From positions 15,313 through 79,312 of the forward strand of contig JBBABZ010000001.1 of assembly GCA_041657385.1 (NCBI GenBank): DNA of 64,000 nucleotides. Direction: 5' to 3'. The position numbers were made by a program, and so were the translations under genes. Numbering within the stretch: the stretch's first letter is position 1; each line of letters begins with the position of its first letter. Under the pieces are notes generated by a model, which searched no databases, was not told where the DNA came from, and saw nothing but the letters and a program-made list of their open reading frames with translations. This stretch comes from Minisyncoccota bacterium (GTDB taxonomy: Bacteria > Patescibacteriota > Minisyncoccia > Minisyncoccales > JAQTVQ01). This document shows positions 8,043-41,970 of the stretch, piece by piece.

Positions 8043-10559
8043 ATGCTTGATCTTAAAAATTCGCGGATCTCAAAAGCGATCTTCATTGAAAAATATTTCT
8101 TTCCTGGAGCGCTTGGCCCTCTAAAGACTCTTTTTGAGTTAATCTTTATATTGTTTTCAGCCTCCTACCTTAGCTATTCTTTTCTAGGTCCCATTCCATT
8201 TTCAAAAGAATCCATCTTGGGGGCCGCCTGGATATCGTTCTCTTTATGGGGATTCCTTTGGCTTTTTCTAAGCTTCTTCAGCCAAAAACTGAAAGAGCCT
8301 GCGATAAAAGAATCCGATAACTTGGCTGATTTTTTAGATCTGAACTCGGCCAAAGCCGTGACAAAAGCCATCCATTCTAAAAAATATTCTTTCAGCCTGT
8401 CTCTCTTTCTAATATTGGCGGAAATGCCCGAATTCAAACCGGCTTTTTCAAGACTTTTATTGTCTCGGGAAAAAATTTGCAAGTCTGCCCAAGAAATATG
8501 GGGAAAGGGGGAGGCTGGCGAAGGCAACCGGCTCGAAGAAGCGGAACAGGTTGTTATGTCCGCGCTTAAAATGGCGGCTTCGGAAAATTTGGAAAGAATT
8601 CCTGCTTCCCGCTTGCTGTTCGCCGTTATAGAAAGCCACCCCTTAGCCAAAAAAACTTTGTTTTCGCTCGGCATTTCTAAAAACGATATCGTGGAAACGG
8701 TCCTATGGCAAGAAAAAGCTTTGAACTCCCGAAAGATCGCAAAAAAATTCTGGCTGAAAAAAAATCTCTTGAAAGAAGACAGCATCGGCAGGCACTGGGC
8801 GGCCGGGCATACCTACTTCCTTAATCTTTACTCGCGCGATCTTGCAAATTTCAGAAAGACGCTTCCTTCTCTTGGAGTCATTCTGCATGAAAAACAAATA
8901 AAACAGCTGGAAGACGCTTTAATAGGCTCCAGCGGCGCTACTTCCGCCTTGCTGGTCGGAGAGCCAGGCGTTGGAAGAAAGATGATCTTATCCAATCTGG
9001 CAAATAAAATTTCAGAAGGGCGCAGCTACCGTCCGCTTAATTTCAACAGAATGGTCGAGATCAATATGCCTTCTTTGATAACCGCTTCCCAGAGCATTGA
9101 AGAACTCGAGGTCATTTTGAAATCAATATTCAACGAAGCGATGCGGGCTGGCAACGTCATTCTCGTCATCCGCGAGATCCATAATTACATAGGATCTCAT
9201 TTCGGGGCCAGGGATGTGGCAAAGGTCAACATTTCCGGAATACTGGCGGAATATGCCTCTCTGCCAGGGTTCCGCCTTATCGGCATCGCGACCCCCGAAG
9301 GATTCAACCGCGTTTGGCACCAAACCCAAGAAGTCCTCTCTCATTTCGCGAAAATAGAAGTGCCGCCAGCCACCCCGAAAGAAACGCTGGCAGTTTTGGA
9401 AGAAACAGCTTTGGAAATAGAAAGGCAAACGAAATTTTTGATCACTTTTCCGGCCCTTGAAGAAATAATCGAGCTTGCCGACCGTTATATTTCCGATACT
9501 CCGTTCCCCAAAAAAGCGCTGAATATTTTGGACGGAGTAATTATTTATAAAATAAGGAACGGCAGAAGGGGATCGAACTTGATCTTAAAAAAAGAAGTTG
9601 ATGCCTTGGTCTCCGAAAAGATCGAGATACCGGTAGGAGAAGCGAGTCAAAGGGAAAAAAATGTCCTGCTGAACCTGGAAGACATCATCCACCAGCGGCT
9701 CGTGGGCCAGGAAGAAGCCGTTTCCGAGATCGCTAATGCCCTGCGCCGCGCAAGGGCTGATATTAAAAACGGCAAAAGAACCTTGGGCAGTTTTCTTTTT
9801 CTGGGCCCGACCGGCGTTGGCAAGACAGAAACCGCCAAATGCCTGGCCAGAGCTTATTTCGGCTCGGAAAAAAAAATGATACGGCTCGATATGTCCGAAT
9901 ATCAAGAGATCGGTTCGATCAAAAAATTGATCGGCGACGGAGAAAACCCCGGATACTTTACGACAATGGTCAGGGAAGACCCTTTCTCCCTGATCCTGCT
10001 TGATGAAATTGAAAAGGCCCATCCAAATATCTTAGATCTCTTCCTGCAGATCTTGGACGAAGGACGATCAACCGACGGATCGGGCCGGACCGTTGATTTC
10101 CGAAACACCATTATCATCGCGACCTCGAACGCGGGGGCGGAATTGGTGAGAAACGCCGTTAGAAAAGGTAAAAATCTATCCGAATACAAGCAGGAATTCA
10201 TCGATGAAGTCCTGAAAAAGGGGCTTTTCAGACCGGAATTCCTGAACAGGTTCGATGCGATCGTTCTGTTCCGAACCCTCACGAAAGAACACCTTCAAAA
10301 AATCGCCCGGCTTATGCTTGAAGAGATAAAAAACGGCCTCGACCAAAAGGGAATAGACCTCGCGATCACTTCGGAGCTGGTTGAAAAAATGGCCGAGATC
10401 GGATTTTATCCCGAATTCGGAGCAAGAGAAATGCGAAGGGTCATCCAAGAAAAAGTTGAGAATAGCATTGCCAAAGCAATGTTATCCGGAAACCTCAAAA
10501 CCAGCGACAGCATAAAGATAGACCCCGAAACATTCAAAATACTGGAATCTAGAATTTAG
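8043..10559 (+). CDS. Clp/Hsp100-family double AAA+ ATPase with N-terminal transmembrane segments
   Basis: 838 aa. D2 is canonical (LFLGPTGVGKTETAK, LILLDEIEKAH, the sensor region and ATSN). D1 reads GEPGVGRKM and VILVIREIH. The N-terminal ~80 aa are hydrophobic. The last codons (ILESRI*) come from repeat B3. Confidence 0.8.
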   Translation: MLDLKNSRISKAIFIEKYFFPGALGPLKTLFELIFILFSASYLSYSFLGPIPFSKESILGAAWISFSLWGFLWLFLSFFSQKLKEPAIKESDNLADFLDLNSAKAVTKAIHSKKYSFSLSLFLILAEMPEFKPAFSRLLLSREKICKSAQEIWGKGEAGEGNRLEEAEQVVMSALKMAASENLERIPASRLLFAVIESHPLAKKTLFSLGISKNDIVETVLWQEKALNSRKIAKKFWLKKNLLKEDSIGRHWAAGHTYFLNLYSRDLANFRKTLPSLGVILHEKQIKQLEDALIGSSGATSALLVGEPGVGRKMILSNLANKISEGRSYRPLNFNRMVEINMPSLITASQSIEELEVILKSIFNEAMRAGNVILVIREIHNYIGSHFGARDVAKVNISGILAEYASLPGFRLIGIATPEGFNRVWHQTQEVLSHFAKIEVPPATPKETLAVLEETALEIERQTKFLITFPALEEIIELADRYISDTPFPKKALNILDGVIIYKIRNGRRGSNLILKKEVDALVSEKIEIPVGEASQREKNVLLNLEDIIHQRLVGQEEAVSEIANALRRARADIKNGKRTLGSFLFLGPTGVGKTETAKCLARAYFGSEKKMIRLDMSEYQEIGSIKKLIGDGENPGYFTTMVREDPFSLILLDEIEKAHPNILDLFLQILDEGRSTDGSGRTVDFRNTIIIATSNAGAELVRNAVRKGKNLSEYKQEFIDEVLKKGLFRPEFLNRFDAIVLFRTLTKEHLQKIARLMLEEIKNGLDQKGIDLAITSELVEKMAEIGFYPEFGAREMRRVIQEKVENSIAKAMLSGNLKTSDSIKIDPETFKILESRI

Positions 10560-10680: not shown

Positions 10681-11259
10681 TTATTCTATGCAGCAGTTGA
10701 CGGCTTTTTTGACCATCTCTTTCAGCTTGGCCATTAGGCCATTCTTCTGCGGATCTGGCTGTTTTTCAACAAGATCATCGCTGGCGGCAGAGGCTACAAC
10801 CTGCTCAACGGATTTATCATCCATCTTTTTCACATCGCCGATATTGATCAGCTTCATATTCAATCCCCAAAACAGGGAATAAAGGCTGAACGCTTTATTG
10901 AAAAGACCATAGGCGACATCTTTTTTACCCATCGAAAGCTGTTTGGTCCCAACTTCCATTAATCTCATTGAAGCGGCCAGCAAATGCTTGGAAATGCACC
11001 AAACTTCGCCTTCGTATTCTTTGATGATCTCTTTCAACAGCTCCTTTCTCATCTCCCTCACGATATTTATCAAGTCGTAATACTCGTTCTTGCCGGTTTT
11101 GGCGCCGGTAAAGAAGAAGTGCTCCTCGATACTGATCAAATTCATAATAGCCAAGCTTAAATCCTGGTCCGAAGACAGGTCCATCTTGTCTTTTTTCTTC
11201 ATTTCATCGACTTTGGCCACGAACTCATTAAGGTCTTTGATGGGGTTGTTTGTTTGCAT
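10681..11259 (-). CDS. Hypothetical protein (192 aa) ending in CCIE
   Basis: Long ORF with no recognisable family and a predicted helical composition. The ATG lies 10 nt from the last heptamer of repeat A4. Confidence 0.5.
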   Translation of the reverse strand: MQTNNPIKDLNEFVAKVDEMKKKDKMDLSSDQDLSLAIMNLISIEEHFFFTGAKTGKNEYYDLINIVREMRKELLKEIIKEYEGEVWCISKHLLAASMRLMEVGTKQLSMGKKDVAYGLFNKAFSLYSLFWGLNMKLINIGDVKKMDDKSVEQVVASAASDDLVEKQPDPQKNGLMAKLKEMVKKAVNCCIE

Positions 11260-11267
11260 AGCGATAA

Positions 11268-11398
11268 AAGCGTAAAGCTAAAAGCGTAAAGCTAAAAGCG
11301 AAAAGTGTAAAGCAGCGAACGGATATTTTAAACTTTACCTGCCTACCGGCAGGCAGGCGCTGTTGTTTTGCGCTTTTCGCTTTACACTTTACGCTTTA
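11268..11398. repeat. Heptamer-hairpin element, family A, copy A4, with GC palindrome
   Basis: The left arm is AAAGCGT AAAGCTA AAAGCGT AAAGCTA AAAGCGA AAAGTGT AAAGCAG (exact period 7). The core is CGAACGGATATTTTAA and the palindrome is CCTGCCTACCGGCAGGCAGG (11339-11358). The right arm is TTTTGCGCTTTTCGCTTTACACTTTACGCTTT. Confidence 0.9.
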
Positions 11399-11427
11399 TT
11401 TATTTTGTTAAAAAATATCTCCGATAT

Positions 11428-11940
11428 TTACTTTGTTAAAAAATAAAAAACGATGCTCAATATAACAAGGGGGGCTATCGGCATCGCCATCTTCTCAAAG
11501 GGGAAATGGGCTTTGCCGCCGTTCTTTCCTTTCAAATATTCATACAAAGTTGCGCCAAAGTAAAAAGCGGCTGTTCCGACAATGATGCCAATGATAAGCT
11601 TATCTTTAAAACAAGAACATAAAAAAGCGATCGGATCGCCGACGATCCTGCTAAAGAAAAGGGATCCGATGGTCATGCCGAAATAAAGGGCGCCGACAAC
11701 AGTCCCCATAAAGCGGAATTTGATGTTTTTCCCTGCAAGCCAATTGATCGTCCAAAGGGTAAGGGAAAGCAATAAACCGCCTATCCAGAGGCCGCTTATA
11801 GTATCATCTATACCCAGCCAGCGGGACAATCCAAGGCCTGTTCCTACGGCCAGCGTGCATAAAGGGCATACTGCCAGCGCTTGTTCGGCAAACAACAAAC
11901 CCGCTACGGTAACGAAAGATAATAATGCTTTATTTTTCAT
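11428..11940 (-). CDS. Polytopic membrane protein with CPLC and CSC motifs (candidate thiol-disulfide partner)
   Basis: 170 aa. A signal-like N-terminus ends in ALAVCPLCTLAVG, followed by about 4 further hydrophobic helices and a second Cys pair (FLCSCF). It lies immediately downstream of the CPHC thioredoxin-fold gene on the same strand. Confidence 0.5.
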   Translation of the reverse strand: MKNKALLSFVTVAGLLFAEQALAVCPLCTLAVGTGLGLSRWLGIDDTISGLWIGGLLLSLTLWTINWLAGKNIKFRFMGTVVGALYFGMTIGSLFFSRIVGDPIAFLCSCFKDKLIIGIIVGTAAFYFGATLYEYLKGKNGGKAHFPFEKMAMPIAPLVILSIVFYFLTK

Positions 11941-11960
11941 GGACGTGTTAGGTTAAATGG

Positions 11961-12371
11961 CTAATTTTTCGCTTCTTGATCTTTTATTTTCTGCTCAAAA
12001 AAACCTTCTACCTTCGGCAAGCCGATAAGACAATTTGAGCCGGTCCACAAAAAAGGGATCATTATCTGTTTTGGGTCGGTGATACCGCAAACCTTGGCCG
12101 TAGAAACAAGTTCGTTGGAATTGTCTATATTCTCATAGACCTCTTTTGTCTGGTAGGGAACTTTTGATTGGACATCATTAGTTTCAAGCCAAGCCTCAAC
12201 ATCTTTGCAATGAGGACAGGTTGAACCGTAGTAAAGAACTATCTGTCCGGCTGGCGCCGGAAGGACTGGCTTGGCTTCTGCCGCTAAGGGCTTTTCTGAA
12301 GCCAAAACAAAAATAGCGGCAACGGATGCCAGAAGAAAGATCGCGGTTGAAAGAATTATTTTCTTGTTCAT
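11961..12371 (-). CDS. Exported thioredoxin/glutaredoxin-fold protein with a CPHC active site (DsbA-like)
   Basis: 136 aa. It has an N-terminal signal/anchor (MNKKIILSTAIFLLASVAAIFVLA) and LYYGSTCPHCKDVEAWL, a CPHC motif identical to the DsbA active-site tetrad. Confidence 0.65.
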   Translation of the reverse strand: MNKKIILSTAIFLLASVAAIFVLASEKPLAAEAKPVLPAPAGQIVLYYGSTCPHCKDVEAWLETNDVQSKVPYQTKEVYENIDNSNELVSTAKVCGITDPKQIMIPFLWTGSNCLIGLPKVEGFFEQKIKDQEAKN

Positions 12372-12490
12372 TTTCCTAAGTTGTTTTTAATTCCGTTTAT
12401 TTGCTGTAAAATTAAAATATATCAAAATCAGCCTTAAAGCAAATTTTCAATAAATTAATTATACATTATTTTTCAACAGCCAAACACACT

Positions 12491-12898
12491 ATGCCAACAG
12501 CTAAAGAAACCGGCCAGCTAGGGGAGCAGATGGCTATTGAATATTTGGAAAACAAAGGCTACGAAATACTGGACCGCAATTATGTCTTCCGCGTTCCGCA
12601 AGGGCCGCCGATGGGAGAAATAGATATTGTCGCCAAAAAAAATAAGATAGTTGTTTTTGTCGAGGTCAAAACATTGAGGGTAGACGAAAAGTCGGGAAGC
12701 GAGCCGCTTATCCGGCCCGAAGAAAAAGTCAATTACCAAAAAATGCGGAAATTGGCCAGGGCCGCAGAAAATTGGTTGATAAAAAACGAAATCGGTTTGG
12801 ACAAGCCCTGGCAAATTGATATAATTGCCGTAAAGATTTTTATTGGCCGGACCAAAATCGTCCATTTCGAAAATGCTGTTTCCAATTTTCAGCGATGA
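12491..12898 (+). CDS. yraN: YraN-family (UPF0102) endonuclease-like protein
   Basis: 135 aa. It reads GEQMAIEYLENKGYEILDRNY...GEIDIVAKKNKIVVFVEVKT, typical of this family. Confidence 0.8.
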   Translation: MPTAKETGQLGEQMAIEYLENKGYEILDRNYVFRVPQGPPMGEIDIVAKKNKIVVFVEVKTLRVDEKSGSEPLIRPEEKVNYQKMRKLARAAENWLIKNEIGLDKPWQIDIIAVKIFIGRTKIVHFENAVSNFQR

Positions 12899-30263: not shown

Positions 30264-30671
30264 ATGGTCTTGACTAAAAACAAAAAAAATTTCATTATCT
30301 TAGCGGGAGCCCTGTCTCTGTTTTTGTTTTCCGGAGGTGAAGCCTTAGCCGCTGGGATTGTTCCTTGCGGAGGAACGGATTGCACTCTTTGCGATCTCTT
30401 TAAAATGGTTGAGAACATCGTGAACCAGATATTTTATTATCTGGTTCCATCAATCGCCGTTTTGCTTGTTGTTTATGGCGGATTTTTATTAATTACAGCC
30501 AGGGGAGATGGCAACTCTGAAAATGTGAAAAAAGCTAAAGCCGCTTTAACCGCTGTTGCCGTAGGGTTGCTTATAATTTACGGTTCATATATCGCTGTAA
30601 ATGAAATACTAAGAGCCGTGGGCGTAAAAACAGTCTGGCAGCAAGGGTGGTACCAAATTGATTGCCAGTAA
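30264..30671 (+). CDS. TrbC/VirB2-like T4SS pilin-domain protein (CPR type)
   Basis: 135 aa. A signal peptide is followed by GIVPCGGTDCTLCDLFKMVENIVNQIF, two TM helices flanking GDGNSENVKKAK, and a C-terminal Cys. The same layout recurs at 41.6 kb and 42.7 kb. Confidence 0.65.
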   Translation: MVLTKNKKNFIILAGALSLFLFSGGEALAAGIVPCGGTDCTLCDLFKMVENIVNQIFYYLVPSIAVLLVVYGGFLLITARGDGNSENVKKAKAALTAVAVGLLIIYGSYIAVNEILRAVGVKTVWQQGWYQIDCQ

Positions 30672-39669: not shown

Positions 39670-41970
39670 ATGACCCGCCGTTCTATTTATTTCGCCGCGA
39701 TAATAATCCTCTTTTTTTCTTTGGCCGGGCCATGCCTGGCTGCTTGCGGCAGCTCTTGGTACGGATGCGTAGGAGGCCACAGCAATTCCTGCTCGGACGA
39801 TCTTTGGTTTTATACACAATCCTGCGGCGGATATAACGACAAAGGGCAGTGCTTGAGCTGCCTTACCAATCAAGTTTTATCACAGGACTGTTTTGAATGG
39901 GAACAATGCAGCAGCGGCGCGGCTAAATGCCAATGCTGCGGCGATTGCTTCGGCACTCCAAAAAATCCAAGATACTACGACAACCCCACTTATTCCGACC
40001 AGCCGGACAAAAGCCAAAATTCTCAAAGCATCGATCTTCCCTTAAAGCTGGACTGGGATGACGTCCTCGGCTGGAAAGACGGCTGGACGCAAAACGGAAA
40101 CAAACAATCCTGCTCCAGAAACTGCGCGAATTCTTACCGTTTGACTATCTACGACACAAAGGCAAAAAAAGAAGTCATTAATAAAGTCTTAACAAAGTCA
40201 GAATACAATATCCGCGAAGACAAAGGGCCCTGTTTTTTAGAATCCAGCCGCACTTATGAATGGCACGTCCAAGCCTGCTGCGATTCTAATGGAACCACTT
40301 GCGGCCCGGCCAGCAATTGGAGTTTTACCACTAGCCTAGCACCGGAATTGGATTCTCCTTACGATCCAGATTGGGCCGGCCCGGAAAAAATAGAGAATGT
40401 CGATCTTCCGGTTTCTTTGAAATGGTGCAAGATCAACGAAACCAATTCCCACGACATAAGATTCTTTCTTGTAAAAAACGGGGTGGAACAATGTCATCCA
40501 AGCCTTTTGAACGGAACCGAATGCACCACTTATCCTTTCAACTTAAAAACTCAAACCAATTCCGAAATAACGGTTTTCCAAGACACTGACCTGAATTTCT
40601 TTACTAAAAGCAGCGAATACCGCTGGGAAATTTCTTCCTGTAAAGGCTATGTAAATTCCGAATGCGAGCTTTTCGGCCAGAAATGGTCTTTTTCCACCAA
40701 GGACACCAATTTGATTGCCGCTTCGGGCTATCTCCCTTCAAACGATCCGACAGGAGCAACCCCCATCGGCCTTCCGGTAGATTTCAGCTGGGTCAAAACA
40801 CCCGGAGCCAACTCTTATATTTTTGAACTGAACCCCGTGAACATTAAAAAGACTCTCAACTCAACTGGCCTGCAAATCGACTCTCCTTCTTTACAGTTGA
40901 CGTCCTCCTATAATTGGAGAGTAAAACCTTGCTGGGATTTTGAAGGAAAAGACTGCGAAGATTTCAGCCAAACTTATTATTTCACAACCACCGGCCTGCC
41001 GCCGGTTAATATCAATGTCGACGCCGTATCGTTTCCGGTTGAGATCGATTGGGGTAATGTCAGCGGAGCGTCTTCTTACTATTATCAGCTAGCTTCGGAT
41101 GCCGGCTTTCAAAATATCATTGAAGGAAAGGATGCCAGCCAAAACAAAATAAGTTTTGATTATACTAAGATCAAACAGGAAACCGATTATTGGTTCCGCT
41201 TAAAAACCTGCGCCCATCAAAACGGAGAGCTCTGCGGCGATTGGAGCCAGACAAAAAACTTTAAAACGATCAAACTGGCATCCCCCGCAAACATTAAACC
41301 TCAAAATGGCTCCGTTCTTTCGACGAGCCAAGCGCAAACCTTTTCCTGGAACCCGGTTCCGGCCGCGAAGTATTATAAATATTCTTTAAAATACGCCGAG
41401 ATGGCTGCCGAAGAAACCAATGAAAAATGCCCAGCCCTGCTTAACCAACTCCAAGAAAAAATTACAGCCAACACAAATGCCATAGAGATCATGGACTGCA
41501 AAGGAAAATACCAGCTTCAAGCTCAAGCCTGTATGGAAGCAGATTGCAAGGCCGAGACATCGGGCAGCTGGTCTGCGGTGCAAGAGTTTAGTATAAAATC
41601 AGGAGTCGCTTCAAAAGACCTCCAAGGCAAGGGATTCATCCCTTGCGGCTTGTCAGCCGATGATCCAACAACCCCTTGGGACGAAAGCCAAAGATGCGAG
41701 ATAAAACACTTGTTCATTCTATTGAATATGATCATAAATTTCTTGATGTGGACGCTCGTGCCGATCGTCCTTCTCTTCTTGATGCTGGCTTCCGGAGCGA
41801 TCTTTTATTTCTCGATGGGCAGGGAAGACCCCTTGCCGCGGATCAAGTCTTTATGGAAAGCCGCCGGCATCGGCCTTGGCATTATTTTCTTATCTTGGTT
41901 CATTATCAATATCAGCTTGTCATTGGTCGGATTTAAATTCGGCGCCTTTGGCAAATGGTGGAATTTTTAA
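39670..41970 (+). CDS. Large secreted Cys-rich repeat protein with a C-terminal T4SS-pilin-like membrane domain
   Basis: 766 aa. After a signal peptide come at least 5 repeats of the pattern [LF]xW..V.GA..Y...Y.WRV..C....C..WS....F.T. The C-terminus (GFIPCGLSADDPTTPWDESQRCEIKHLFILLNMIINFLMWTLVPIV...) parallels the pilin at 30264. Confidence 0.65.
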   Translation: MTRRSIYFAAIIILFFSLAGPCLAACGSSWYGCVGGHSNSCSDDLWFYTQSCGGYNDKGQCLSCLTNQVLSQDCFEWEQCSSGAAKCQCCGDCFGTPKNPRYYDNPTYSDQPDKSQNSQSIDLPLKLDWDDVLGWKDGWTQNGNKQSCSRNCANSYRLTIYDTKAKKEVINKVLTKSEYNIREDKGPCFLESSRTYEWHVQACCDSNGTTCGPASNWSFTTSLAPELDSPYDPDWAGPEKIENVDLPVSLKWCKINETNSHDIRFFLVKNGVEQCHPSLLNGTECTTYPFNLKTQTNSEITVFQDTDLNFFTKSSEYRWEISSCKGYVNSECELFGQKWSFSTKDTNLIAASGYLPSNDPTGATPIGLPVDFSWVKTPGANSYIFELNPVNIKKTLNSTGLQIDSPSLQLTSSYNWRVKPCWDFEGKDCEDFSQTYYFTTTGLPPVNINVDAVSFPVEIDWGNVSGASSYYYQLASDAGFQNIIEGKDASQNKISFDYTKIKQETDYWFRLKTCAHQNGELCGDWSQTKNFKTIKLASPANIKPQNGSVLSTSQAQTFSWNPVPAAKYYKYSLKYAEMAAEETNEKCPALLNQLQEKITANTNAIEIMDCKGKYQLQAQACMEADCKAETSGSWSAVQEFSIKSGVASKDLQGKGFIPCGLSADDPTTPWDESQRCEIKHLFILLNMIINFLMWTLVPIVLLFLMLASGAIFYFSMGREDPLPRIKSLWKAAGIGLGIIFLSWFIINISLSLVGFKFGAFGKWWNF

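What the first reader, a model, noticed from the sequence alone, without database searches (positions are those of the whole stretch)
11428..12371. Candidate non-canonical disulfide-bond formation pair: exported CPHC thioredoxin-fold protein plus a polytopic membrane protein with CPLC and CSC motifs
Two co-directional, adjacent genes are involved. The first has a signal/anchor and a CPHC motif, the exact DsbA active-site tetrad. The second is a 170-aa, ~5-helix membrane protein with a CxxC right after its signal-like segment (ALAVCPLCT) and a second Cys pair (FLCSCF). By my reading it resembles neither DsbB nor VKOR. The window also encodes many Cys-pair-containing extracytoplasmic proteins, including the 766-aa repeat protein and pilin-domain proteins with PCG...C..C. 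Those would need an oxidative folding system. The inference is that the membrane protein reoxidises the DsbA-like protein.
Basis: inference. Interest (0 to 1): 0.55.

Follow-up and report, generated by a model that had tools for sequence, protein, structure and literature searches.

The report
Three-gene membrane cysteine relay module
The two genes are real and work together, but they belong to a three-gene set found in many ultra-small bacteria (an exported thioredoxin-like protein, a membrane protein of no known family, and an overlooked, very conserved cytoplasmic cysteine protein) that probably passes thiol chemistry across the membrane in a way not yet described.

Summary
An anchored 136-aa CPHC thioredoxin-fold gene (11961-12371, minus) abuts a 170-aa membrane gene (11428-11940, minus) carrying CPLC and CSC.

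- **No known family.** The membrane protein matches no Pfam or NCBIfam model. Profile-profile tests against VKOR, DsbB, a DsbD_2/ArsG set and a MerTP-like protein are at noise level, while the VKOR-DsbB control scores 83%. A pLDDT 87.5 model has no PDB match above Z 6.9.
- **Linked to the thioredoxin gene.** The two are adjacent in 56 of 80 related loci and fused in at least 14 protein clusters.
The 192-aa soluble gene at 10681-11259 has an invariant Cys88 and a C-terminal Cys-Cys tail. It follows the membrane gene in 75 of 80 loci and occurs in 32 of 33 genomes that carry the membrane gene. Elsewhere it is fused to NADP-binding and thioredoxin domains.
- **CSC is optional.** About half the family lacks it.
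- **Context.** 31 of 80 loci sit among ArsR, ArsP-like, ArsG-family or CopA genes.

Best reading: a trans-membrane cysteine relay tied to the cytoplasm. A simple quinone-type DsbB analogue is less likely. Whether it carries electrons or soft metals, and in which direction, is unresolved. Earlier follow-ups in this scan described the same module on other DNA.

The parts
11961..12371 (-). Exported, N-terminally anchored thioredoxin/glutaredoxin-fold protein (136 aa). Active site CPHC at residues 52-55, cis-Pro loop at 105-106, second invariant Cys pair C95/C114.
   Evidence: ORF. Weak Glutaredoxin/Thioredoxin matches. Family alignment A2 has C52, P53, H54, C55, C95, P106 and C114 invariant. The profile hits PDB glutaredoxin 7c10 at E 4.8e-8. 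Lipobox variants in relatives (L084-L086) and signal peptides in the fusions place it outside the cell.
11428..11940 (-). Membrane protein of an unannotated family (170 aa). Probable cleavable signal peptide (1-23), outward CPLC (25-28) at the start of a Gly-rich helix, four further helices, optional outward CSC (108-110), and two conserved positively charged cytoplasmic loops (70-78, 137-150).
   Evidence: No Pfam or NCBIfam match. At least 858 homologue clusters. Alignments A1 and A3. AlphaFold model pLDDT 87.5. No PDB fold match above Z 6.9. Charge and signal-peptide statistics. hhalign to VKOR, DsbB, a DsbD_2/ArsG set and a MerTP-like protein gives 0.2-3.4% probability.
10681..11259 (-). 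Invariant residues are E45, E46, H47, E85, C88, K91, H92, R99 and E102. A variable linker leads to a conserved C-terminal helix ending Cys-Cys-Ile-Glu.
   Evidence: Directly downstream of the membrane gene in 75 of 80 loci and present in 32 of 33 genomes that carry the membrane gene. Alignment A4 has 52% mean column identity. No Pfam, NCBIfam or PDB match. Fusions and an intein inserted just before C88.
11260..11427 (.). 168-nt spacer between the membrane gene and the third gene. It is filled by a hairpin whose arms are built of 7-base units (GCGTAAA/GCTAAAA...) around a GC-rich palindrome at 11338-11357. In related loci this spacer is usually 2-22 nt.
   Evidence: Sequence and repeats. Typical spacing. 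The palindrome is also flagged as terminator-like.
12468..12497 (-). Promoter-like hexamer pair upstream of the thioredoxin-like gene, in the 119-nt divergent gap before the plus-strand UPF0102 gene. This is a consensus match only.
   Evidence: TTGGCA-18-AAAAAT, 9 of 12. The number of such sites in the region equals the shuffled expectation, so support is weak.

Best explanation
The locus is a three-gene operon encoding a cysteine relay that spans the cytoplasmic membrane.

**Components**
- An exported, membrane-anchored glutaredoxin-sized thioredoxin-fold protein (CPHC).
- A small membrane protein of a new family. Its invariant CPxC sits at the outer membrane face, at the N-terminus of a Gly-rich helix. 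In this genome and about half its relatives, a CxC in an outer loop is also present.
- A very conserved soluble helical protein with an invariant Cys88 site and a tethered C-terminal Cys-Cys. The two conserved, positively charged cytoplasmic loops of the membrane protein probably dock it.

**Proposed mechanism**
The module moves thiol-disulfide redox equivalents between the cytoplasm and the cell surface, following the logic of CcdA/DsbD/ScsB with their thioredoxin-like partners. The reducing direction is favoured. It is often used in operons that respond to soft-metal or metalloid stress.

**Shown**
- The three families exist and are conserved.
- The genes are adjacent and, in some organisms, fused.
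- There is no detectable homology to known families.

**Inferred**
- The topology.
- Signal-peptide cleavage.
- Docking of the third protein on the cytoplasmic loops.
- The redox cargo and its direction.
For: **Gene linkage**
- Trx-Mem adjacency in 56 of 80 loci.
- Mem followed by the third gene in 75 of 80 loci, including 23 of the 24 loci without Trx.
- The third gene is present in 32 of 33 genomes that carry Mem.

**Fusions**
- Signal peptide, Grx-like domain, TM helix and Mem domain in one protein.
- Soluble proteins with the third domain, a Trx domain of the same family and the CC tail. Some also carry an N-terminal NADP-binding domain (PF03807; npdG-like, E 3.5e-8).
- A cytoplasmic Thioredoxin domain fused to the third protein in L134.

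**Interchangeable membrane partner**
- The same Trx type is fused to DsbD_2/DsbD_TM-like domains (L085, L087, L090).
- In genomes without Mem, the third gene sits beside SfLAP/DsbD-like or ArsG-like proteins (L132, L133).

**Topology**
- Loops 70-78 and 137-150 carry 3.5 and 3.9 K/R on average. The turn at 43-47 carries 1.8 D/E.

**Functional importance of C88**
- An intein is inserted exactly before it in more than 15 clusters.

**CxC and the separate Trx gene**
- 29 of 30 loci with CxC have a separate adjacent Trx gene.
- All 14 Trx fusions lack CxC.

**Genome background**
- One canonical thioredoxin is present.
- No DsbB, VKOR, DsbD, MauE or DsbA match was found.
- In 301 Patescibacteria genomes, VKOR or DsbB occurs in 8 of 33 Mem carriers and 140 of 268 others. 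The naive test gives p 0.003 and is not corrected for kinship.
Against: - In the favoured topology Mem has no cytoplasm-facing or mid-membrane cysteine, so how equivalents cross the membrane is unexplained.
- Mem shows no cofactor motif and no conserved His.
- The third protein resembles no known redox enzyme.
- The single Mem-third fusion (P0284) would put the Mem C-terminus inside, against the charge-based topology. It looks like a stop-loss read-through.
- NCBIfam names the 'CcdA-like' stand-ins as ArsG-family efflux permeases (296 bits against a cut-off of 200). The analogy may therefore be to permeases rather than electron carriers.
- 31 of 80 loci lie with ArsR, ArsP/SaoE-like, ArsG or CopA genes, and one relative pairs the third gene with a MerTP-like protein. 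This fits the metal rival at least as well.
- Invariant CPHC is the classic oxidising motif, which argues against a reducing direction.
- The link between CxC and a separate Trx gene has no phylogenetically independent support: only 2-3 supported pairs, p = 1.
Confidence: 0.4

Rival explanations
1. Soft-metal or metalloid hand-over relay, following MerP-MerT-MerA or CopZ-CopA logic. The cysteine pairs act as ligands rather than redox centres. A thiophilic species such as Cu(I), Hg(II), As(III) or an organoarsenical passes by ligand exchange between the exported CPHC protein, the outward CPxC (and CxC) of the membrane protein and the Cys-Cys tail of the cytoplasmic protein. The purpose would be uptake for detoxification, or export.
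For: - 31 of 80 loci carry ArsR, an ArsP_1/SaoE-like permease, Thioredoxin_3, an ArsG-family protein, a CopA-type P1B ATPase (TIGR01511, 605 bits) or MIP within 4 kb. These are mostly co-directional with gaps of a few bases.
- In G204 the third gene overlaps a MerTP-like gene (NCBIfam E 1e-23, below its cut-off). In G228 it abuts a P-type ATPase with a CPC motif.
- C-terminal vicinal Cys-Cys tails are typical of metal handlers such as SaoC and HgcB (bioRxiv 10.1101/2022.07.06.499078) and MerA (my own knowledge).
- CxC, CC and CPxC are all classic soft-metal motifs.
- The Trx domain keeps four invariant Cys even in the cytoplasmic fusions.
Against: - 49 of 80 loci, including this window, have no metal gene nearby.
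- Mem has no Cys, Met or His lining a path through the membrane.
- The exported partner has a full thioredoxin-fold signature with a cis-Pro loop.
- The third protein is fused to thioredoxin and NADP-binding domains.
- Thiol-redox modules such as Scs also sit in copper loci (my own knowledge), so context does not discriminate.
- No homology to MerT (hhalign 0.2%).
Confidence: 0.3
2. One reading: a DsbA/DsbB-type oxidative folding pair. The membrane protein makes disulfides de novo using a membrane-soluble or other electron acceptor and reoxidises the CPHC protein, which then oxidises secreted Cys-rich proteins. The third protein would be an accessory, for example handling the acceptor.
For: - Invariant CPHC.
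- The outward CxxC sits at the N-terminus of a membrane helix, and there is an outer-loop Cys pair in this genome. DsbB and VKOR share this design (my own knowledge).
- MauE, a newly reported DsbB substitute, uses a CxC in the loop between TM3 and TM4 (bioRxiv 10.64898/2026.03.05.709764).
- The genome lacks DsbB, VKOR, MauE and DsbA yet encodes a 34-Cys secreted protein.
- Mem carriers have VKOR or DsbB less often: 8 of 33 against 140 of 268.
Against: - The Trx partner is absent near Mem in 24 of 80 loci, and neither adjacent nor fused in 18 of 33 genomes.
- CxC is missing in about half the family.
- 8 of 33 carriers also have VKOR or DsbB, and 3 of 5 non-Patescibacteria-labelled carriers checked have DsbB.
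- No quinone-site or cofactor signature is visible, and Patescibacteria generally lack quinone synthesis (my own knowledge).
- The model does not explain the near-obligate cytoplasmic Cys partner or its NADP and Trx fusions.
- 128 of 301 Patescibacteria have none of the three systems, so a gap is not unusual.
Confidence: 0.2
3. The genes are neighbours without a shared mechanism: an unrelated small membrane protein sitting next to a generic exported thioredoxin.
For: No experiment links them. Roughly 30-55% of Mem genes lack the Trx neighbour, depending on the sample.
Against: Repeated adjacency across proteins only 30-60% identical, gene fusions in at least 14 clusters, and invariant Cys motifs in all three families.
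Confidence: 0.03

Closest known systems
CcdA / DsbD / ScsB membrane electron transporters with their exported thioredoxin-like partners (ResA, CcmG, DsbC, ScsC)
   Same: - An exported Trx-fold protein paired or fused with a small Cys-bearing membrane protein that has a cytoplasmic thiol partner.
- The same Trx type is found fused either to Mem or to DsbD_2/DsbD_TM-like domains.
- Scs-type modules also sit in copper loci (my own knowledge).
   Different: - No sequence or profile similarity.
- Mem has one CPxC at the outer face rather than two single cysteines buried in TM1 and TM4.
- The cytoplasmic partner is a new helical Cys protein with a CC tail, not thioredoxin.
DsbB-DsbA (E. coli), BdbC-BdbD, and VKOR with MdbA or fused Trx domains (Actinobacteria, cyanobacteria; reported in CPR by Meheust et al. 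2019, PMC6744442)
   Same: - An exported CPHC/CxxC Trx-fold protein next to or fused with a small polytopic membrane protein.
- The membrane protein's CxxC starts a helix at the outer face.
- An outer-loop second Cys pair is present in this genome.
   Different: - hhalign probability 1-3% against 83% for the VKOR-DsbB control.
- No fold match.
- The second Cys pair is not conserved.
- A near-obligate cytoplasmic partner exists.
- The Trx-fold protein is glutaredoxin-sized and has no DsbA helical insert.
MerP-MerT-MerA mercury relay
   Same: - Three tiers: an exported CxxC protein, a membrane protein with a Cys pair in its first membrane segment, and a cytoplasmic protein with a C-terminal Cys-Cys.
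- One relative pairs the third gene with a MerTP-like gene.
   Different: - No homology.
- The exported protein has a Trx fold, not an HMA fold.
- Mem lacks MerT's cytoplasmic Cys pair.
- No MerA-type flavoenzyme is present.
MauE (reported in 2026 as a DsbB substitute; bioRxiv 10.64898/2026.03.05.709764)
   Same: [quoted passage not shown]
   Different: - No PF07291 match for any of 102 family members at E up to 1.
- Here CxC is optional and CPxC is the invariant motif.
C-terminal Cys-Cys proteins next to transporters (SaoC, HgcB, DUF466 YbdD/YjiX; Haft preprint 10.1101/2022.07.06.499078)
   Same: A conserved Cys-Cys at or near the C-terminus of an otherwise uncharacterised protein encoded beside a membrane protein.
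   Different: - SaoC is exported and unrelated in sequence; no NCBIfam hit for the third protein.
- The third protein ends CC-I-E and has an additional invariant Cys/His/Glu site.

Membership tests
DsbB (PF02600) | Sequence or profile match to the DsbB family | tested here: not met
   No Pfam hit for the window protein or for any of 102 relatives at E up to 1. hhalign of A1/A3 against 20 Patescibacteria and other DsbB sequences gives 0.9-1.3% probability, while the VKOR-DsbB control reaches 83%.
DsbB (PF02600) | Two essential extracytoplasmic Cys pairs (CxxC in loop 1, a pair in loop 2) | tested here: not met
   CPxC is nearly universal. The second motif (CxC) is absent in about half of standalone members and in all fusions. 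Both pairs are present in the window protein itself.
DsbB (PF02600) | Four-helix DsbB/VKOR-type fold with a quinone site | tested here: inconclusive
   Foldseek and VIA-align searches with two models (pLDDT 73.7 and 87.5) list no DsbB chain. The best Z is 6.9, to unrelated helical proteins. Quinone binding cannot be tested here.
VKOR (PF07884) | Sequence or profile match; CxxC at the start of the last core helix plus a loop Cys pair | tested here: not met
   No Pfam hit. hhalign gives 2.1-3.4% probability over 11-14 columns around the CxxC only. Fold comparison is inconclusive.
CcdA / DsbD_TM / DsbD_2 (PF02683, PF13386) | Sequence or profile match; two single cysteines in TM1 and TM4 | tested here: not met
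   No Pfam hit. hhalign against the ten DsbD_2/ArsG-family neighbours gives 1.5%. Mem has no intramembrane single Cys pair (A3).
MauE / DoxX (PF07291, PF07681) | Pfam match; conserved CxC active site | tested here: not met
   Neither family is among the 25 listed of 65 Pfam families hit by any of 102 members at E up to 1. CxC is not conserved. No profile-profile test was run because no MauE alignment was available.
MerT | NCBIfam/Pfam match; Cys pair in TM1 and a cytoplasmic Cys pair | tested here: not met
   No NCBIfam hit. hhalign to the one MerTP-like sequence in hand gives 0.2%, though a single sequence gives low power. No cytoplasmic Cys pair in Mem.
Thioredoxin-fold oxidoreductases (the 136-aa protein) | CxxC at a helix N-terminus plus a cis-Pro loop in a Trx/Grx-sized domain | tested here: met
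   CPHC and V/I-P106 are invariant in A2. The profile matches glutaredoxin 7c10 at E 4.8e-8. Pfam Glutaredoxin scores E 4.8e-4, below its cut-off. The fold itself was not modelled.
DsbA (PF01323, PF13462) | Trx fold with an inserted helical domain; family profile match | tested here: not met
   No match to PF01323 or PF13462 in the whole genome. The soluble part is about 90 residues, too short for a DsbA insert. NCBIfam DsbA scores E 0.009 against a cut-off of 279 bits.

The most novel reading that the evidence does not exclude
Two protein families with no recognisable relatives form a previously undescribed machine. They are the CPxC membrane protein and the Cys88/Cys-Cys-tail cytoplasmic protein. 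Together with an exported CPHC thioredoxin-fold protein, they couple cytoplasmic reducing or oxidising power to thiol chemistry at the cell surface without quinones or DsbD-type carriers. This would be a third design beside DsbB/VKOR and DsbD/CcdA. It is spread across Patescibacteria and also found in MAGs that NCBI labels Gammaproteobacteria, some with a gammaproteobacterial gene context. A soluble NADP-linked version exists in other bacteria.
Probability: 0.4. Interest if true: 0.8.

Novelty: new variant of a known kind. Interest (0 to 1): 0.66.

Why it matters
Disulfide and thiol handling outside the cytoplasm is known to have unexplained gaps. In the sample searched here, 128 of 301 Patescibacteria had neither DsbB, VKOR nor this module. 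The 2026 MauE preprint states that further pathways remain to be found.

This module adds two unannotated families, one membrane and one cytoplasmic. Their invariant cysteines, fusions and gene order make a concrete, testable hypothesis for organisms that lack quinones and respiratory chains.

The soluble fusions of an NADP-binding domain, the third domain, a Trx domain and the CC tail suggest that the third protein is itself a new kind of redox or metal-handling enzyme. The frequent placement among ArsR, CopA and ArsP-like genes links it to metal or metalloid stress.

All three proteins are small and could be expressed and assayed in E. coli.

Tried and rejected
**Membership of known families.**
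- Pfam and NCBIfam scans of all three proteins found nothing, as did Pfam scans of 102 Mem and 29 third-protein relatives.
- PDB profile searches found nothing for Mem or the third protein.
- Foldseek and two VIA-align wide searches found only generic helical matches with Z up to 6.9. No DsbB, VKOR, CcdA or Mer chain was listed.
- The ESM Atlas returned only unnamed clusters and holds no structure.
- hhalign against VKOR, DsbB, ArsG/DsbD_2 and MerTP sets was at noise level.

**Strict replacement of VKOR or DsbB.** Rejected, because 8 of 33 carriers have one of them.

**The Trx-Mem pair as the conserved core.** Rejected in favour of Mem plus the third protein.

**Six-span topology with CxC and the C-terminus inside.** The single Mem-third fusion P0284 suggests it. 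I judged it less likely because it would put 7-8 K/R outside and because the fusion looks like a read-through.

**Independent test of the link between CxC and a separate Trx gene.** Underpowered: 2-3 supported pairs, p = 1.

**Context of the soluble fusions.** Uninformative: a tautomerase, a short-chain dehydrogenase and a CitMHS/ArsB-like permease.

**SaoC (a CC-COOH protein).** Considered as a relative of the third protein and rejected. SaoC is exported and there is no NCBIfam hit.

- Model coordinates are not exposed, so Cys-Cys distances could not be measured.
Full report
**1. What is there**

Three minus-strand ORFs form the unit.
- **Trx**, 11961-12371, 136 aa.
- **Mem**, 11428-11940, 170 aa.

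The unit is flanked on both sides by plus-strand genes. These are a Clp/Hsp100-like ATPase ending at 10559 and a UPF0102 gene starting at 12491, so it stands alone.

Trx and Mem are 20 nt apart. Mem and the third gene are 168 nt apart. That spacer is filled by a hairpin whose arms are built of 7-base units around a GC palindrome. In related loci the same two genes are usually 2-22 nt apart.

**2. The Trx-like protein**

It has a positively charged start and a 20-residue anchor. A roughly 90-residue domain follows, with invariant CPHC, an invariant cis-Pro-type proline and a second invariant Cys pair (A2).
- Relatives carry lipoboxes or signal peptides, so the domain is outside the cell.
- It is glutaredoxin-sized. 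The profile matches PDB glutaredoxin 7c10 at E 4.8e-8, and that protein itself has CPHC.
- It matches no DsbA model.
- CPHC therefore does not by itself mark a DsbA-type oxidase.

**3. The membrane protein**

*Family and conservation*
- Mem has no Pfam or NCBIfam family.
- Its own family is large: at least 858 clusters at 90% identity and 425 representatives at 50% identity. The few members that carry a source name are labelled hypothetical, and they come mostly from Patescibacteria.
- C28, W52 and G122 are invariant in 102 diverse members. C25, P26, A23, G43, D46, G54, F146, K150 and P154 are nearly so.

*Signal peptide.* The first hydrophobic stretch has a short h-region of about 14 residues and an AxA-type site just before the CPxC. 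I infer a cleavable signal peptide and a mature N-terminus X-C-P-x-C.

*Topology*
- Loops 70-78 and 137-150 carry 3.5 and 3.9 K/R on average.
- The turn at 43-47 carries 1.8 D/E, and loop 97-114 is roughly neutral.
- By the positive-inside rule, CPxC and the CxC loop face out and the two most conserved loops face the cytoplasm.
- The natural fusions have the order signal peptide, Grx-like domain, TM helix, K/R-rich loop, hydrophobic segment, AxA, CPxC. They independently place CPxC on the same side as the exported Trx domain.

*Structure.* A model built on 102 sequences reaches pLDDT 87.5. It finds nothing in the PDB above Z 6.9.

*Homology tests*
- hhalign against 20 VKOR and 20 DsbB sequences, taken mostly from Patescibacteria genomes, gives 1-3% probability. 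The VKOR-DsbB control gives 83%.
- The DsbD_2/ArsG and MerTP comparisons are also at noise level.

**4. Linkage of Trx and Mem**

*The 80 best genomic loci.* A Trx homologue lies directly upstream on the same strand in 56. The other 24 have none within 4 kb.

*An even sample of 301 Patescibacteria genomes*
- 33 carry Mem.
- In 15 of those the Trx is adjacent or fused.

*Fusion clusters.* At least 14 fuse the Grx-like domain to Mem.

*The CxC motif*
- It occurs in 112 of about 215 standalone members and in none of the fusions.
- Among the loci, 29 of 30 genes with CxC have a separate Trx next door, against 24 of 48 without CxC.
- This fits a shuttle pair needed only for a separate partner.
- The tree-based test had only 2-3 supported independent pairs, so this remains a description.

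**5. The third protein is the tighter partner**

*Linkage*
- A homologue follows Mem in 75 of 80 loci at E 1e-37 to 1e-86. This includes 23 of the 24 loci without Trx.
- 32 of the 33 genomes that carry Mem have it.

*Sequence features*
- It is soluble and more conserved than either neighbour, with 52% mean column identity.
- E45, E46, H47, E85, C88, K91, H92, R99 and E102 are invariant.
- A variable linker leads to a conserved C-terminal helix ending C-C-I/L/K-E.
- It has no Pfam, NCBIfam or PDB relative.

*Longer forms*
- Tandem duplicates.
- An intein inserted exactly before C88 in more than 15 clusters. Inteins usually sit in conserved functional sites (my own knowledge).
- Soluble proteins in which a Trx domain of the A2 type is inserted between the helical domain and the CC tail. 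Some of these also have an N-terminal NADP-binding domain (PF03807; npdG-like).
- One Mem-third fusion that looks like a read-through.

*Other arrangements*
- The soluble fusions come from high-GC metagenome contigs with no Mem nearby.
- In L134 a cytoplasmic thioredoxin domain is fused to the third protein.
- In Patescibacteria with the third gene but no Mem, it sits beside other membrane proteins:
  - weak SfLAP/DsbD-like and ArsG-like proteins (L132, L133);
  - a MerTP-like protein (L137, E 1e-23, below its cut-off);
  - a P-type ATPase with a CPC motif (L135).
- The A2-type Trx is also found fused to DsbD_2/DsbD_TM-like domains.

**6. Genomic context**

In 31 of 80 loci the trio lies with one or more of ArsR, Thioredoxin_3, an ArsP_1/SaoE-like permease, an ArsG-family (DsbD_2) protein, a CopA-type ATPase or MIP. 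These genes usually share its strand, with gaps of a few bases. The other 49 loci, including this window, have unrelated neighbours.

**7. Distribution**

*The 301-genome sample*
- VKOR occurs in 94 genomes and DsbB in 66.
- The DsbB count includes one unpublished genome, G154. No other claim rests on it.
- Mem carriers have VKOR or DsbB in 8 of 33 cases, against 140 of 268 for the rest. The odds ratio is 0.29 and the naive p is 0.003, not corrected for kinship.
- 128 genomes have none of the three.

*Close relatives of this genome*
- None of the 15 sampled genomes of the window's own order or class has Mem.
- Two of them have the third gene with another membrane partner.
- The trio may therefore have been acquired by this lineage.

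*Beyond Patescibacteria*
- The module also occurs in MAGs that NCBI labels Gammaproteobacteria, some with a pheT-ihfA-type context.
- Of 5 carriers labelled as non-Patescibacteria that I checked (4 Gammaproteobacteria, 1 Betaproteobacteria), 3 also have DsbB.

*The window's genome*
- It is 97.6% complete.
- It has one canonical thioredoxin.
- It shows no DsbB, VKOR, DsbD_TM, Thioredoxin_4, MauE or DSBA match.
- It encodes a 34-Cys secreted protein.

**8. Interpretation**

The data establish a conserved three-tier arrangement of cysteine proteins across the membrane.

*Against a simple DsbB analogue*
- The cytoplasmic partner is near-obligate and is fused elsewhere to NADP-binding and thioredoxin domains.
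- The second Cys pair is optional.
- Mem can be exchanged for DsbD-superfamily proteins between the same two partners.
- The module co-exists with VKOR or DsbB in some genomes.

*For a relay coupled to the cytoplasm*
- I favour thiol-disulfide exchange with reducing flow (0.4).
- A soft-metal or metalloid hand-over relay is a strong rival (0.3), because of the operon contexts, the MerTP neighbour and the CC tail.
This genome lacks every known oxidase yet secretes Cys-rich proteins, and CPHC is invariant.

*The main gap in every model.* Mem has no cysteine or obvious ligand on the cytoplasmic side, so how anything passes between the cytoplasmic face of Mem and the outward CPxC is unexplained.

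**9. Literature and earlier notes**

- CPR bacteria are reported to use MdbA-like oxidoreductases with VKOR (PMC6744442).
- MauE was reported in 2026 as a further DsbB substitute, and its authors state that gaps remain.
- My searches of the held library found no paper on this module.
- Earlier follow-ups in this scan described the same three-gene module on other genomes. One of them gave me the lead to the third gene, which I then tested here.

Noticed in passing
window 11260-11427: A hairpin with arms made of 7-base units (GCGTAAA/GCTAAAA/GCGAAAA...) around the palindrome CCTGCCTACC/GGCAGGCAGG fills the spacer between the membrane gene and the third gene. It runs up to the third gene's start codon. 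Related loci have only 2-22 nt here, so it looks like an insertion that splits an otherwise tight operon.
   Followed up: partly
proteins P0283-P0300 (metagenomic relatives of window 10681-11259): An intein with a LAGLIDADG homing endonuclease is inserted in the third-protein family exactly between W87 and the invariant C88 (...GEVW / C-L-P...H-N / C-I-S-K-H...). An uncharacterised protein hosting an intein at its only invariant internal cysteine is unusual.
   Followed up: partly
L140-L153 (metagenome contigs, 54-61% GC); proteins P0301-P0308: Soluble proteins in which a CPHC/CPDC thioredoxin domain sits between the third-protein helical domain and the Cys-Cys tail. Some also have an N-terminal F420/NADP-oxidoreductase-like domain. 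No membrane partner is nearby. This may be a new NADPH-linked thiol or metal reductase.
   Followed up: partly
L088:1422-2657, L089:1510-2817, L091:1202-2422: Proteins of 400-435 aa in other Patescibacteria. They have a signal peptide, a CPHC Trx-like domain and a roughly 250-aa polytopic domain with a conserved DGFNPC motif that Pfam does not recognise. This is another unannotated Trx-membrane fusion family.
   Followed up: no
proteins P0271-P0282: Tandem duplication of the third protein within one polypeptide (about 342 aa). The first copy has lost C88 and the CC tail; the second keeps both.
   Followed up: no
window 39670-41970 (+) and 30264-30671 (+): A 766-aa secreted protein with 34 cysteines, and a 135-aa secreted protein starting ...GIVPCGGTDCTLC. 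Both lie in a genome with no recognisable disulfide-forming enzyme.
   Followed up: partly
L038, L058, L065, L075 (MAGs labelled Gammaproteobacteria): The Mem-third module, with or without Trx, also occurs in small low-GC gammaproteobacterial MAGs. In L065 and L075 a gammaproteobacterial-type context lies upstream (an IHF-like and a MerR-like gene, plus pheT in L075). Two of these four genomes also encode DsbB.
   Followed up: partly
L001-L049 (many loci): Recurrent operon ArsR - Thioredoxin_3 - ArsP_1/SaoE-like permease - (A2-type Trx - ArsG-family protein) - Trx - Mem - third - (CopA). A second A2-type exported Trx is paired with the ArsG-family (DsbD_2) protein, mirroring the Trx-DsbD_2 fusions.
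   Followed up: partly
protein P0011: A 245-aa relative labelled Pacearchaeota carries an internal duplication of about 75 residues of the membrane domain (helices 2-3 and the CxC loop).
   Followed up: no
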